Assembly: GCA_963714015.1 (NCBI GenBank)
Contig: OY970223.1
Span: forward strand, 2,304,001-2,368,000
DNA from: Vulcanimicrobiota bacterium
GTDB lineage: Bacteria; Vulcanimicrobiota; Vulcanimicrobiia; Vulcanimicrobiales; Vulcanimicrobiaceae
Reading direction: 5' to 3'
DNA length: 64,000 bases
In this document: in pieces, positions 37,001 to 40,000 of the stretch
How positions within the stretch are numbered: position 1 is the stretch's first letter
How the letters are laid out: every line of letters begins with the position of its first letter
Program-made: the position numbers

Positions 37001-40000
37001 TCGCGGGATACGGGTTCAACAAGTCGCACGCCGCCGCATATGCATGGGTCGCCTATCAGACCGCATATCTGAAGGCGAACCATCCGCTGCAGTACTTCTG
37101 CGCGCTCATGACCTCGGTCAAAGACAAAACCGACAAGCTCGTCGAGTACATCGAAGAAGCCAAGAAGCTCGGCATTGCGGTGCTTCCGCCGGACGTCAAC
37201 CAGTCGCTCATCGACTTCGCGGTCGTCGGCAGCGAAATACGATTCGGGCTCTCGGCGATCAAGGGCGTCGGCGAAGGCGCCGTGCGCATCGTGCTGAACG
37301 CGCGGGAGTCGGACGGTCCGTTTCAGGATATCTTCGAACTCGCCAAGCGCGTGGACACCAAACAAGTCAACCGGCGTGTCTTCGAAGCGCTGATCAGGTG
37401 CGGCGCCCTGGACTGCCTGCCCGGGAATCGCGCGCAAAAACTCGCCGCCCTCGACCTCGCGCTCGAGATCGCCGCGGCCGAATCGCGCGATGCTCAACTC
37501 GGTCAAGTTTCGTTGTTCGGCGATGCACCGGCGGCATTGGCGGGCTTGACGCCGACGCTGCCTGCGGTGGCGCCTCCGAATACGATGCAGACGCTGCAGT
37601 GGGAGAAGGAGACGCTCGGAATCTTCGTCTCCGGGCACCCGCTTGCAGACGTTGCCGAAGCGCTGGCGCGCACCGGCGCAATTCCGGTAAAAGATCTGCG
37701 GGCGCGAGAAGACGACAGCTTCGTAACCGTTGCCGGAATGGTAACCAACGTCCGGCGCACGCTGACCAAAGCCGGCCAGCAAATTCTCATCGCGCAGATC
37801 GAGGACACGACAGGCACGGTGGACGTCATCGTCTTCGCAAAACTCTATCCGCAAGTGCAGGGCCTGTTCGAACAGGATCGCATCCTTATCGTCAAAGGCC
37901 GCCTGCGCATGCGCGAGCGTCCCGGAGCAGCAGGTGAGGAAGGGCCGCTCGAGCTTTCCGTCGGCGCGAACGATGTTCAGGCGTTCGAACGCCCATTGCG
38001 CCCCGCGCAGCCGGCGGGCTGGCACGTAATCGTTGCCACGCGCGATCAGGTCGACCGCCTGGCCGCAATTCTGGACGAATGGCCCGGCACGGTCCCCGTC
38101 ATGGCCCGCATCGCAAATCGCACGCAGCGTCTGCCGCGAGGAATTGCCGCCGACTACCGCGTCCAAACGGAGCTGGAGCGCGTATTCGGAGCGAGCAATG
38201 TGCGCGAAGGCTTACCGCAATGATCGTACGGCCCTCTGGTGCCGGCCGGCGGGGCATCGGGTCACAGGGATATCTGACATTTTTCGCCCGGCCATGGATG
38301 GCCGCTTCAAAACTTCGTTGCGCGAAAAATGCAGCTGAGCAGCAATTCGACACGATGTCGAATTGCGAGCGGCCCTGTGATCCGATGCCCCGCCGGCCGG
38401 CACCAGAGGGCGATACGATTGCCGGCGCAAGCGGAGCCGGTCCGCTATGAGAACGGCGATCGAACCAAGGTTGGTCGCGTTCGATCTCGACGGGACGCTG
38501 CTCGGGCGAGATTTGCTCGTGCGGCCGCGGGTCTTTTCTGCGATAGAACGGATGCTCGAGCGAGGAGTGCAAGGATGCGTGGTAACCGGGCGGATGTACC
38601 GCGCGACCGTGCCGTTCGTTCGTGAAGTGCGTTTTAGCGCGCCCGTCGTGTGCTATCAGGGCGCCGCGGTGATCGATCCGAACACAGACGAAGTGCTGCT
38701 CGACACGCCCCTGCCGAACGCGGAAGCGATGGCGCTCGTACAGTACGCGCAGGCGAACGATTTGCATCTCCAGCTGTACGCCAACGATCGATATTACTGC
38801 GAGCATCGCAACCGCCATTCGGATCTCTACGCCCGGATTTCGGGCGTAGAACCCATCGTGGTCCCGTCTCTGCGCGCGCAGTTCGAATTTTGGGACGCTA
38901 CGAAGGCCGTGATTATCGCCGATCCCGCCGTCGTGCTGCAGCATCTGCCGCTCGTGAAGGCACTGCTCGGGGGACGCGCGTATGTCACTCGCAGCATGCC
39001 CCAATTCCTCGAGGTCATGGACGCAAGCGTCGACAAGGGAAAAGCGCTGGCCGTGGTGGCGGACCGGCTGCAGATTCCGCTCGCCGAGGTGATGGCTATC
39101 GGTGATTCGTGGAACGACGCGCCGCTGCTCGAGTCGGCGGGTTTCGGCGTTGCAATGGGATCGGCGCCCGCGGAACTGCGCGAGATCGCAGACGCGGTGG
39201 TCGCCGACGTTCTCAACGACGGTGTTGCCGAAGCGATCGAGCGTTTCGTCCTGGCATGACGGCGCGAAAGAACACTCGTCGCAAAACGGCCGCAATTTCG
39301 CGAATGCGGCCGTTCTGGCTGCTGATTGCCGTGCTCGGCGTTGCCGCTGCGGCAGCTGGCTACTGGGCCGCGACGTGGCCGGGCTTCTATCCCGGCACGG
39401 TGGGCGTCAGCGGCAATCACGTCGTTCCGGCCGAGCTTATTCTGGAGCGTGCTGCGATCGCTCCGCGGCAAAATGTTTGGCTGCAGAACATGCACGCAGC
39501 CGCGCAACGCGTCGCGCAGATTCCGTACGTCGGCGAAGCGCGCATTCATCGGCTCCTACCGGATCGCGTGCGGATCGACGTGACGGAAAGGTCCCCGTAC
39601 GCGCTCGTGCAGTTCACCGAGGGCACTGTGGTCGTCGACCACGATCTTCGCGTCCTGCAAACGGGCGAGATCGATCGCTCCCTGCCGCTGCTCGATGTCG
39701 GCGACGACGCATTGCCGGTTCCCGGAGTCTTCATCAAGGATCCCAAAGCCGCCGAGCTGCGCGATGACGAAGACGTACTGCGCGCACAGCATGTCGCCAC
39801 GGAGCAGTTCCGCTACGATCGCTTCGGCGATCTCGTGGTAACCATGCGCGGCGGCGTTCGATTGCTGCTGGGCGACGATGCGGATCTGGCGCAGAAGGCC
39901 TCGCTCGTCGGTCCGATCCTCTCCCAAGTGGCCGCCCAGGGAAGAAAGATCTCCGCGGTCGATCTTCGCGCGCCGGGAACGCCCGTCGTCGTCTACAAGT

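What a model noticed while it worked through the whole genome (the two positions that open the first line are those of the whole stretch)
38223..38419. Second intergenic element: conserved 100-nt core clasped by long inverted arms that are different at every locus
A second repeat family (17 copies) has a conserved ~100-nt core, and in at least 11 copies the core is directly flanked by a 37-55 nt inverted repeat whose sequence is unrelated from one locus to the next, so that each copy can fold into a hairpin of about -70 to -150 kcal/mol (e.g. 2342223-2342419 after dnaE, 2834665-2834858, 3501946-3502150, 776156-776360). I read this as a mobile element of a so far undescribed design in which only the loop module is copied with fidelity while the stem is selected for pairing, not sequence, i.e. 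it acts (and perhaps moves) as a folded single strand of RNA or DNA; long perfect stems inside operons would be RNase III or cruciform targets. New: a MITE-like f [...]
Evidence so far: Self-BLAST of the genome, intergenic hits outside family 1: cluster of 11 bins. nhmmer profile of the core: 17 hits, E 3.6e-27 to 5e-14: 519289, 606954, 776210, 1369343, 1564893, 1971507, 2342273, 2442498, 2834711, 2924929, 3358532, 3358729, 3386510, 3386761, 3413776, 3501740, 3501997. Local alignment of the 100 nt left of each core with the reverse complement of the 100 nt right of it: arms of 37-55 nt, score 53-100, ending 0-8 nt from the core in 11 copies; perfect runs up to 43 nt. Arms of different loci share no similarity (best local score 13 of a possible ~47, except the two neighbouring copies at 3386510/3386761). 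RNAfold: -127.5 and -152.9 kcal/mol for the copies at 2834655 and 23422 [...]
(Added by a program. Inside this text positions count along the whole contig: contig position 2,304,001 is position 1 of the stretch shown here. "Call 12" and the like, gene names such as g00115 and contig names such as C1 are that model's own, and its searches are not shown. The text may have been shortened before it was handed on; [...] marks where a part breaks off. The agent that wrote the report below was given it as the finding of a first reader that could run no searches.)

Follow-up and report, generated by a model that had tools for sequence, protein, structure and literature searches.

The report
TwoAYGGAY-like hairpin repeat with variable stem
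This is a small non-coding repeat, built like the known but unexplained TwoAYGGAY RNA motif, whose two conserved hairpins sit on a long stem that differs in sequence at every locus yet stays base-paired.

Summary
Window 38223-38419 is a 197-nt hairpin: two 47-nt arms around a 103-nt core. It lies between dnaE and a HAD-type hydrolase gene. The genome has 17 cores, 12 with long locus-specific arms. The design has precedent. The core is two hairpins with GGA loops on a common basal stem. Rfam's TwoAYGGAY model aligns full length to 3 of 17 copies, reading the arms as its external stem, but scores below threshold (32.5 against 43 bits). Other shared traits are many copies, divergent doublets, a poorly conserved outer stem and neighbouring REP-like repeats. 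My covariance model finds the element in 49 of 71 other sampled genomes of one Eremiobacterota family, Baltobacteraceae by relatives' record titles, and in 0 of 79 from 20 other families. Related genomes have empty sites lacking both arms, so the whole hairpin is the inserted unit. Young paralogs share arms, so arms are copied. They then diverge fast through paired Watson-Crick changes, and positional orthologs stay paired at about 50% identity. G-U pairs are as rare as A-C. CsrA is encoded, and one copy follows the flagellin gene of a fliW-csrA-flagellin cluster. RNA or DNA action, and the means of movement, remain unknown. New variant of a known kind.

The parts
34780..38223 (+). dnaE (DNA polymerase III alpha). 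Its stop codon TGA ends at 38223, and the last base of the stop is the first base of the left arm.
   Evidence: ORF list. Pfam DNA_pol3_alpha, finger, PHP and HHH_6 domains.
38223..38269 (+). Left (5') arm of the long basal stem. Its sequence is specific to this locus.
   Evidence: Unique in the genome.
38274..38334 (+). Hairpin 1. The outer stem is CUG + CAUUUUUCGC pairing with GCGAAAAAUG + CAG. It encloses a small hairpin at 38290-38303 whose loop region reads AUGGAU (38294-38299), and a conserved unpaired stretch UUCAAAACUUCGUU.
   Evidence: Fold. Covariation of helices 1 and 2.
38335..38372 (+). Hairpin 2, with an 11-bp stem at 38342-38352 / 38356-38366. In this copy the loop region reads ACGAU, with no GGA. 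Most other copies have AUGGAG or ACGGAU here.
   Evidence: This hairpin corresponds to hairpin 2 of RF01731 in the copies that the Rfam model aligns.
38373..38419 (+). Right (3') arm, complementary to the left arm in 44 of 47 positions.
38420..38446 (+). A 27-nt spacer before the start codon of the downstream gene. It is absent from the tight dnaE-hydrolase junctions of relatives. The tetranucleotide ATGA stands at both ends of the inserted block (38220-38223 and 38447-38450).
   Evidence: junctions of 10 related genomes; the same arrangement in G001.
38447..39259 (+). Downstream gene, a HAD-family (Cof-type, Hydrolase_3) hydrolase.
   Evidence: Pfam.

Best explanation
The element is a Baltobacteraceae-restricted branch, or close analogue, of the TwoAYGGAY type of structured repeat. 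Two hairpins with GGA-containing loops are held on a long external (basal) stem. The 'long inverted arms' are that stem.

Shown here:
- The core is a three-way junction with strong covariation.
- Arms plus core are gained as one block at sites that are tight gene junctions in relatives.
- Arms are copied together with the core, because young paralogs share them.
- After copying, arms change faster than the core stems, mostly by changes on both sides that keep Watson-Crick pairs. Old copies at the same locus in different species are still paired although barely alignable.

Inferred:
1. Pairing is restored at the DNA level, by copying one arm from the other (intrastrand template switching or arm-to-arm conversion, as known for quasipalindromes). 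This could be helped by selection on the folded sense strand. It would explain why G-U is no commoner than A-C and why multi-base blocks change symmetrically.
2. When transcribed, the two GGA loops at the tip of the stem form a two-site decoy or binding platform for the CsrA dimer, as others have proposed for TwoAYGGAY.
3. The mechanism of spread is unknown. No transposase partner was found.
For: Architecture:
- The fold is a three-way junction.
- 91.4% of cells are paired, 23 of 28 pairs show changes on both sides, and 0 of 500 shuffles reach this. Slid controls give 34-54% paired.

Likeness to TwoAYGGAY:
- RF01731 aligns over positions 1-168 to 3 of 17 copies at 32.5, 29.8 and 24.5 bits. The arms occupy its outer stem, and hairpin 2 matches its GCCaUGGAuGGC apex on an A/U-rich stem.
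- GGA is in the hairpin-1 loop in 47 of 48 copies and in the hairpin-2 loop in 43 of 48.
- Among the 150 listed of 205 matches there are 6 doublets within 1 kb: 5 divergent and 1 tandem. One more divergent doublet appears. For Pseudomonas the preprint reports 68.4% divergent doublets and a median gap of 249 bp (10.64898/2026.09.22.753630, section 8).
- The external stem is described as 'not well conserved' (PMC4333381, passage).

The whole hairpin is the inserted unit:
- dnaE abuts the hydrolase gene in 10 of 22 related loci, and none of the 22 has a core.
- At G001 insertions against G000 empty sites, the lengths are 170 vs 11, 192 vs 16, 212 vs 42 and 354 vs 71 nt, with neither arm present at the empty site.

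Arms are copied and then diverge:
- G002 L256/L257/L258 have cores 96-98% identical and share the inner ~25 nt of their arms.
- G001 L061/L066 share whole arms apart from a mirrored 4-nt block.
- In 8 young or orthologous sets, arm pairs score 152 invariant, 50 changed on both sides and still paired, 16 changed on one side, and 6 broken. Core stems score 289, 22, 9 and 1.
- The positional orthologs G001 L063_2517 and G002 L255_9937 share a rare hairpin-1 stem variant and a GGAGGG loop. Their arms are about 50% identical, yet paired in 22 of 24 and 31 of 32 positions.

Watson-Crick only:
- Core stems of 77 distinct copies give WC 2022, G-U 18, A-C 14 and other 46.

CsrA:
- The gene is present in G000 and in all 19 genomes that have the element, of the 41 searched.
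- One copy lies just past the flagellin gene of a fliW-csrA-flagellin cluster, and another lies between fliP and fliR.
Against: - Rfam's own threshold is not met. The best score is 32.5 against 43 bits, only 3 of 17 copies give any match at E<1, and 0 of 41 related genomes have a match over the cut-off.
- Strict AYGGAY is in the minority: 9 of 48 for hairpin 1 and 14 of 48 for hairpin 2. The window's own hairpin 2 has no GGA.
- The case for an RNA role is weak. Orientation relative to neighbouring genes is mixed: in my crude gene calls the co-directional loci are mostly antisense, and both flagellar-cluster copies are antisense.
- No conserved promoter-like or terminator-like feature was found.
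- The rarity of G-U is unusual for a selected RNA helix.
- CsrA is also present in 13 of 22 genomes without the element.
- Motility or chemotaxis neighbours were seen at only 5 of about 59 loci looked at, which is not clearly more than chance.
- The tandem pair 3386517/3386768 shows uncompensated decay in one arm, so correction is not universal.
- The one search counts use only pairs kept by the consensus fold, so broken pairs are under-counted.
- At several shared loci the cores are no more alike than random pairs (0.54-0.71 against a median of 0.59). Repeated insertion into the same spacer therefore cannot be excluded.
Confidence: 0.6

Rival explanations
1. A new kind of mobile element copies only the ~100-nt loop module, and each locus acquires or evolves its own stem. 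The stem is made at insertion or selected locally.
For: - Most arms are unrelated between loci.
- In the G001 subfamily L058/L059/L063_9063 the cores are 92-96% identical, yet L059's arms differ from the others beyond about 6 bp.
Against: - Other young subfamilies share arms over 20-45 nt or more: G002 L256/257/258, G001 L061/L066 and L067/L068, and L058 with L063_9063 over about 20 nt.
- Similarity decays outward from the core instead of stopping at one fixed boundary.
- The architecture has a published precedent.
Confidence: 0.1
2. The core is a small insertion that targets the loops of pre-existing long palindromes, such as terminators or REP pairs. On this view the arms are older host sequence.
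For: - In G001, 5 of 17 copies have outer arms built from a separate REP-like repeat family that occurs 265 times in that genome independently of cores.
- All 14 G000 loci lie downstream of at least one gene.
Against: - Empty sites in relatives contain neither arm.
- The ancestral dnaE-hydrolase junction is 0-35 nt, often with overlapping stop and start.
- The genome has only one other long inverted repeat without a core.
- The ordinary terminators seen beside some copies are short hairpins with T-runs.
Confidence: 0.03
3. This is purely selfish DNA: a non-autonomous hairpin element that moves as folded single-stranded DNA, REPIN- or IS200/IS605-like, through a trans-acting nuclease. It has no RNA role, and the GGA loops are protein contacts on DNA.
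For: - Covariation is Watson-Crick only, with G-U about equal to A-C.
- Orientation relative to genes is mixed, and no promoter was found.
- Subfamilies are lineage-specific and turnover between congeners is high.
- Doublets occur, and partial tandem copies of the right arm are present in G002.
Against: - No Y1 transposase/RAYT (PF01797) is found in the complete G000 genome.
- No protein family recurs next to copies, among 122 neighbours at about 62 sites.
- There is no bias relative to replication direction.
- No target-site duplication is seen at 7 junction pairs.
- Copies at the same locus in different genera still have intact cores and paired arms, which resident junk would not be expected to keep.
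Confidence: 0.2
4. An unrelated RNA family has converged on the same plan, with two GGA hairpins on a stem, because that plan suits a dimeric GGA-binding protein. It would not be homologous to TwoAYGGAY.
For: - The Rfam score is sub-threshold.
- Hairpin 1 is much larger, with 54-56 nt where the Rfam model has 18.
- The family is confined to one family of one distant phylum: 49 of 71 genomes there against 0 of 79 in 20 other families.
Against: - The Rfam model aligns over its full length.
- Hairpin 2 is closely similar in stem composition, apex and flanking bases.
- Genome-level habits are shared: many copies, divergent doublets and REP neighbours (preprint section 8).
Confidence: 0.15

Closest known systems
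TwoAYGGAY RNA motif (Rfam RF01731; listed in Weinberg et al. 2010, PMC2864571, table entry seen; Li et al. 2026 preprint 10.64898/2026.09.22.753630, sections 8 and 11 read; Gardner & Eldai 2015, PMC4333381, passages read)
   Same: - Two consecutive hairpins rise from a common basal stem, with GGA-centred loops.
- There is an additional long outer stem that is poorly conserved in sequence.
- There are many copies per genome, with numbers differing between relatives.
- Doublets are mostly divergent and a few hundred bp or less apart.
- REP-type repeats lie next to some copies.
- The function is unknown, with a proposed link to CsrA/Rsm.
   Different: - It scores below the Rfam threshold (at most 32.5 against 43 bits).
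- Hairpin 1 is a composite with about 55 nt inside.
- Strict AYGGAY is the minority form, and CAGGAU and AUGGAG are common.
- It lies in a phylum outside the taxa named for the motif in the papers read.
- The basal stems are 30-110 nt, nearly perfect, and essentially unique to each locus. The preprint says most positions are highly conserved among the Pseudomonas SBW25 copies.
- The upstream 5-6-mer arrays and the 3' pseudoknot described for Pseudomonas were not seen here.
REP / REPIN elements and BIMEs of Proteobacteria (recalled from general knowledge, apart from the REP mention in the preprint)
   Same: - They are intergenic, palindromic and multi-copy.
- They lie downstream of genes.
- They change by compensated Watson-Crick substitutions.
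- They fold as single strands.
   Different: - In REPINs the palindromic arms are the conserved, family-defining part, and a RAYT (Y1 transposase) is the partner. Here the arms are the variable part, and no Y1 transposase is found.
Csr/Rsm decoy sRNAs (CsrB, RsmY/Z) (as described in the PMC4333381 passage; details recalled)
   Same: - GGA motifs are presented in hairpin loops.
- The organism encodes CsrA, together with FliW.
   Different: - There are only two sites per unit.
- Copies are dispersed rather than forming one dedicated gene.
- No promoter or terminator of its own was found.
- Orientation is mixed.
- No binding or expression data exist.
Quasipalindrome correction by intrastrand template switching, and arm-to-arm gene conversion in large palindromes (recalled; no paper read here)
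   Same: It would keep two arms identical while their shared sequence drifts. It gives Watson-Crick-only, sometimes multi-base, mirrored changes, as seen.
   Different: It is a process rather than an element family. Its action here is inferred from patterns only.

Membership tests
TwoAYGGAY (RF01731) | [quoted passage not shown] | tested here: met
   Folds of all 17 copies. Covariation is shown. The Rfam alignment places the arms in the model's outer stem.
TwoAYGGAY (RF01731) | AYGGAY in both terminal loops | tested here: inconclusive
   GGA is present in 47 of 48 (hairpin 1) and 43 of 48 (hairpin 2) copies. Strict AYGGAY is present in only 9 of 48 and 14 of 48. The window copy has AUGGAU in hairpin 1 and ACGAU in hairpin 2.
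TwoAYGGAY (RF01731) | Score at or above Rfam's gathering threshold (43 bits) | tested here: not met
   The best scores are 32.5, 29.8 and 24.5 bits, on 3 of 17 copies. None of 41 related genomes has a match over the cut-off.
TwoAYGGAY (RF01731) | Many copies per genome, frequent divergent doublets, and an outer stem poorly conserved in sequence (traits reported in 2015 and 2026) | tested here: met
   There are 1-37 copies per genome. Of 6 doublets within 1 kb, 5 are divergent. Arms are unique in the genome.
TwoAYGGAY (RF01731) | Acts as an RNA (is transcribed) | not testable with these tools
   No RNA run is listed for this organism.
MITE (miniature inverted-repeat transposable element) | Terminal inverted repeats whose sequence is shared by all copies of the family | tested here: not met
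   Arms differ between loci.
MITE (miniature inverted-repeat transposable element) | Target-site duplication of fixed length | tested here: inconclusive
   None is evident at 7 occupied/empty junction pairs. A possible 4-nt ATGA occurs at the dnaE locus in G000, and RTGA...ATGA in G001. Relatives are about 20% diverged, so the junctions are fuzzy.
MITE (miniature inverted-repeat transposable element) | A related autonomous element that encodes the transposase | tested here: not met
   No protein family recurs among 122 neighbouring ORFs beyond shared loci. Only nearest neighbours were examined.
REP/REPIN-RAYT | A RAYT (Y1 transposase, PF01797) gene in the genome | tested here: not met
   There is no match in the complete single-contig genome, while the controls respond in 6 of 14 genomes.
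Csr/Rsm decoy RNA | GGA motifs in hairpin loops, and a CsrA gene in the genome | tested here: met
   Loops were counted. CsrA scores 87.6 bits in G000 and is present in 32 of 41 relatives, including all 19 that carry the element.
Csr/Rsm decoy RNA | Own transcription unit, and measured binding to CsrA | not testable with these tools
   No promoter-like or terminator-like site lies in or beside the window copy. No common flanking motif was found. There are no expression data.

The most novel reading that the evidence does not exclude
The long stems are self-repairing palindromes. One arm is repeatedly re-copied from the other at the DNA level by intrastrand template switching, so the stem sequence drifts freely and sometimes in multi-base blocks, while staying perfectly Watson-Crick paired. 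The same fold-back chemistry, rather than a transposase, would generate new copies and the divergent doublets. TwoAYGGAY-type repeats would then be a transposase-free class of hairpin mobile element, and the cell may have co-opted their GGA loops as CsrA platforms.
Probability: 0.2. Interest if true: 0.8.

Novelty: new variant of a known kind. Interest (0 to 1): 0.5.

Why it matters
TwoAYGGAY was listed among candidate structured RNAs in 2010. Its function and its mobile-element-like spread are still called unresolved in a 2026 preprint.

This lineage offers something the Pseudomonas copies, described there as highly conserved, offer less of. The basal stems differ at every locus, so each copy carries its own record of how pairing is maintained. 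Three observations follow from that record:
- The stem is part of the copied unit.
- It evolves faster than the core stems, by mirrored Watson-Crick changes.
- G-U pairs are not favoured.

Together these make the choice between RNA-level selection and DNA-level self-templating directly testable.

The element also extends the family plan to Eremiobacterota, outside the taxa named for the motif in the papers read. There it sits beside a FliW-CsrA-flagellin module, which is a concrete place to test the proposed CsrA link.

Tried and rejected
- The one metagenome scan used a 20-nt pattern from the start of the hydrolase gene. That pattern is a generic HAD motif. Of the 80 loci fetched with DNA, none had a core, a dnaE end or similarity to the window. 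No strain-level empty site was obtained.
- Sequencing runs: one DNA holder carries 0.28 of the sampled words, and no RNA holder is listed.
- Laying three runs on window 34000-42000 gave only short contigs, identical or foreign. None was informative over 38223-38419, and no joint skipped the element.
- Searching the arms against the genome gave nothing beyond self and partner.
- Searching the arms against 41 relatives through the 1.4-kb query gave core matches only.
- The scan for a replication-strand bias showed none: origin near 0.7 Mb, terminus near 2.4 Mb, and 8 of 17 copies with the sense strand on the lagging-strand template.
- The search for a common motif or small terminator just outside the arms found none. 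A few ordinary terminators of neighbouring genes were seen.
- Neighbour-protein clustering gave only shared-locus groups.
- Proximity of csrA to copies in other genomes is not consistent: 1.5 kb in G000 and about 5 kb in G017, but not elsewhere.
- I considered that arms are inverted copies of the local flank made at insertion. This is rejected as the general origin by the dnaE junction and the empty sites. At one G001 locus (L064), though, the palindrome does reach 10 nt into the conserved end of the upstream gene, so some outward extension from local sequence may occur.
- I considered hammerhead, retron, attC, group II intron and omega-RNA likenesses from memory. Rfam gave none of them at E<=10 on the window copy or at E<=1 on all 14 loci.
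Full report
**What is at the coordinates**

Window 38223-38419 is a 197-nt palindromic unit.
- The two 47-nt arms are 94% complementary and enclose 103 nt.
- It starts on the last base of the dnaE stop codon. dnaE was confirmed by Pfam.
- It ends 27 nt before the start of a HAD-type hydrolase gene.
- As RNA it folds at -152.9 kcal/mol, with z = -13.9 and 0 of 200 shuffles as stable.

- Twelve of the 17 have long arms abutting the core.
- Each arm is unique in the genome.
- Of the 6 long inverted repeats found within 600 nt anywhere in the genome, 5 clasp a core.

**Anatomy of the core**

All copies fold into a three-way junction: the long stem made by the arms, plus two hairpins.
- Hairpin 1 has an outer stem AUUUUCGCG/CGCGAAAAU. 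It encloses a small hairpin with a GGA loop and a conserved unpaired stretch UUCAAAACUU.
- Hairpin 2 is an A/U-then-G/C stem, capped by AUGGAG or ACGGAU in most copies.

Covariation is strong. On the 17 copies, 91.4% of cells are paired and 23 of 28 pairs have changes on both sides. No shuffle of 500 reaches this, and sliding the partners by 1-3 columns drops pairing to 34-54%.

The motif ATTTTCG/CGAAAAT is conserved rather than covarying. It occurs in both hairpins.

**Distribution**

Record titles of relatives place the genome in Eremiobacterota (Vulcanimicrobiota), family Baltobacteraceae.

My covariance model R1 gave these results:

| Search | Genomes with a hit | Breakdown |
|---|---|---|
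| Nearest relatives | 19 of 41 | own family 17 of 24; sister family 1 of 5; a third family 0 of 11 |
| Even sample of the phylum | 50 of 151 | own family 49 of 71 besides G000; 20 other families 0 of 79 |

- Copy numbers range from 1 to 37 per genome.
- In other genera, 18 of 25 copies examined again have locus-specific arms of 29-53 nt.
- The genome tallies include genomes the tool marks as unpublished (G010, G021, G023, G036). One G021 locus is among the copies counted. No sequence from them is given here.

**The whole hairpin is what is inserted**

In 10 of 22 related loci dnaE abuts the hydrolase gene directly. None of the 22 has a core. Those junctions are 0-35 nt, and in the same-genus relative G002 the stop and start codons overlap. 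In G000, arms, core and a 27-nt spacer are therefore extra, with ATGA at both ends.

G001 (same genus) has an element at the same point. The two contigs break inside it, its arms are perfect over at least 34 nt, and I saw no similarity to G000's arms by eye; this was not scored.

I mapped the 17 G001 copies onto G000.
- Eleven sit at colinear sites with no core in G000.
- At the clean junctions the occupied and empty lengths are 170 vs 11, 192 vs 16, 212 vs 42 and 354 vs 71 nt, and neither arm is present at the empty site.

This refutes insertion into pre-existing palindromes. It also refutes arms made from the local flank as the general rule. At one locus (L064) the palindrome does extend 10 nt into the conserved end of the upstream gene.

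**Arms are copied, then diverge with mirrored changes**

Each genome has young subfamilies with 94-98% identical cores.
- In G002, L256/L257/L258 share the inner ~25 nt of both arms. The outer parts are recognisably related but changed on both sides.
- In G001, L061 and L066 share whole arms, including REP-like units. The exception is a 4-nt block that differs and is mirrored exactly on the other arm.
- L058 and L063_9063 share about 20 nt, with a compensated change.

Over 8 such sets I counted only the pairs kept by the consensus fold, which under-counts broken pairs:

| Region | Invariant | Changed on both sides, still paired | One-sided | Broken |
|---|---|---|---|---|
| Arms | 152 | 50 | 16 | 6 |
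| Core stems | 289 | 22 | 9 | 1 |

Copies at one locus in different species stay paired while diverging.
- G001 L063_2517 and G002 L255_9937 lie beside rho. They share a rare hairpin-1 stem variant and a GGAGGG loop.
- Their small stems are swapped and their arms are about 50% identical. The arms are still paired in 22 of 24 and 31 of 32 positions.
- G000 1971508 and G002 L264 are each other's best core match at 0.78. Their arms cannot be aligned, but each set is paired.

Two results cut the other way.
- The tandem pair 3386517/3386768 shows uncompensated decay.
- At several shared loci the cores are no more alike than random pairs, at 0.54-0.71 against a median of 0.59. Repeated insertion into the same spacer remains possible.

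**RNA or DNA**

| Region | Copies | Watson-Crick | G-U | A-C | Other |
|---|---|---|---|---|---|
| Core stems | 77 distinct | 2022 | 18 | 14 | 46 |
| Arms | 42 | 1747 | 46 | 24 | 88 |

- G-U is thus not favoured in the core and only mildly favoured in the arms. This is unusual for a helix kept by RNA-level selection. It fits complementarity that is made by copying.
- The 5' arm is G-rich in 33 of 42 copies, with G 708 against C 510. I cannot explain this.
- All 14 G000 loci lie downstream of at least one gene: 6 convergent, 8 co-directional and 0 divergent by my own crude gene calls. Orientation relative to those genes is mixed.
- There is no bias with respect to replication direction.
- No promoter-like or terminator-like site lies in or beside the window copy, and no shared flanking motif was found.
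- No Y1 transposase is encoded, and no protein family recurs next to copies.

**Closest known**

Rfam finds nothing on the window copy. On all 14 loci, however, RF01731 (TwoAYGGAY) aligns over its full length to 3 copies, at 32.5, 29.8 and 24.5 bits against a threshold of 43.
- The arms lie in its outer stem.
- Hairpin 2 closely matches its apex, GCCaUGGAuGGC on an A/U-rich stem.
- The Rfam model passes its cut-off in 0 of 41 related genomes.

What the papers say:
- A 2026 preprint (10.64898/2026.09.22.753630; sections 8 and 11 read) describes TwoAYGGAY as two hairpins on a common basal stem. It reports a median of 11-23 copies in the Pseudomonas species groups other than P. aeruginosa, where the motif is largely absent, and up to 202 in one strain. 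Doublets are 68.4% divergent with a median gap of 249 bp, and REP arrays lie beside copies. Bacillota versions have an elongated basal stem. It notes a proposed Csr/Rsm-sponge role and an unresolved 'mobile-element-like' spread.
- Weinberg et al. 2010 (PMC2864571) lists the motif. Only the table entry was seen.

Matching traits here:
- GGA stands in 47 of 48 hairpin-1 loops and 43 of 48 hairpin-2 loops, although strict AYGGAY stands in only 9 and 14.
- Among the 150 listed of 205 matches there are 6 doublets within 1 kb, 5 of them divergent. One more divergent doublet appears.
- In G001, a REP-like 16-mer family of 265 copies, found 1 and 0 times in G000 and G002, forms the outer arms of 5 of 17 copies.

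Because the threshold test fails, I do not file the element as a member. I call it built like TwoAYGGAY and probably a distant relative.

**CsrA lead**

- CsrA is encoded in G000 and in 32 of 41 relatives. That includes all 19 with the element and 13 of 22 without it.
- One G000 copy lies just past the terminator of the flagellin gene in a fliW-csrA-flagellin cluster. Another lies between fliP and fliR. Both are antisense to those genes.
- Copies in other genomes lie at fliN/fliP, cheC/cheA and next to cheR.
- That makes 5 motility or chemotaxis loci of about 59 looked at, which is suggestive but not clearly beyond chance.

**Verdict**

Two parts of the interpretation fail: that arms are not copied, and that the design is undescribed.

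The most likely account is a TwoAYGGAY-type repeat with these properties:
- Its basal stem is part of the copied unit.
- That stem is kept paired mainly by DNA-level arm-to-arm copying (inferred).
- Its GGA loops may serve CsrA when transcribed (inferred).
- Its means of spread is unknown.

Noticed in passing
L295 (G000:C1:2832220-2837305), outside the window: This is a fliW - csrA - flagellin cluster on the minus strand. Element copy 2834720 lies just beyond the flagellin terminator, in antisense orientation, and ahead of a glycosyltransferase/TPR gene.
   Followed up: partly
L292 (G000:C1:1969008-1974093); L035 (G018); L062 (G001); L050 (G009): Several copies lie inside motility or chemotaxis gene clusters. 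They sit between fliP and fliR (G000), fliN and fliP (G018), and cheC and cheA (G001), and next to cheR (G009). In all, 5 of about 59 loci looked at are of this kind, which is not clearly more than chance.
   Followed up: partly
G001 genome-wide; for example L060:2454-2487 and 2625-2658: A REP-like 16-mer family (GAGGWATCGAASSNCC) occurs 265 times in G001, once in G000 and not at all in G002. It often occurs in clusters and inverted pairs, and it forms the outer arms of 5 of 17 element copies.
   Followed up: partly
G000:C1:1393355-1393638, outside the window: This is the only other long inverted repeat in the genome. Its arms are 35 nt or more and perfect, around a 214-nt interior that folds into several hairpins (-187 kcal/mol for 304 nt). 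It has no similarity to the core and may be a different structured element on a long stem.
   Followed up: no
5' arms of 42 copies in G000, G001 and G002 (window copy: 38223-38269): The 5' arm is G-rich and the 3' arm C-rich relative to core orientation. The skew is positive in 33 copies, negative in 5 and zero in 4, with G 708 against C 510. G-runs such as GGTTGGGG are common. I cannot explain this.
   Followed up: partly
window 38220-38223 and 38447-38450; L071/L076 in G001: In same-genus G002 the dnaE stop overlaps the hydrolase start (GTGA), and in the other relatives with an adjacent dnaE the junction is 0-35 nt. In G000 and G001 the insertion is flanked by ATGA...ATGA and GTGA...ATGA. 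This could be a 4-nt target duplication, or selection for a restored start codon.
   Followed up: partly
L256:1289-1400 and L257:400-470 (G002): Extra tandem partial copies follow the full element. Each consists of the last bases of the core plus the right arm, so they are 'solo right arms'. This hints at slippage or fold-back events at the 3' side.
   Followed up: no
G000 loci 3501749/3502006 and G014 L053; the rho-adjacent locus in G001, G002 and G014 (L033): Some intergenic sites are occupied in different genera. Examples are beside nuoD/nuoF and beside rho. These are either very old resident copies or insertion hot spots.
   Followed up: partly
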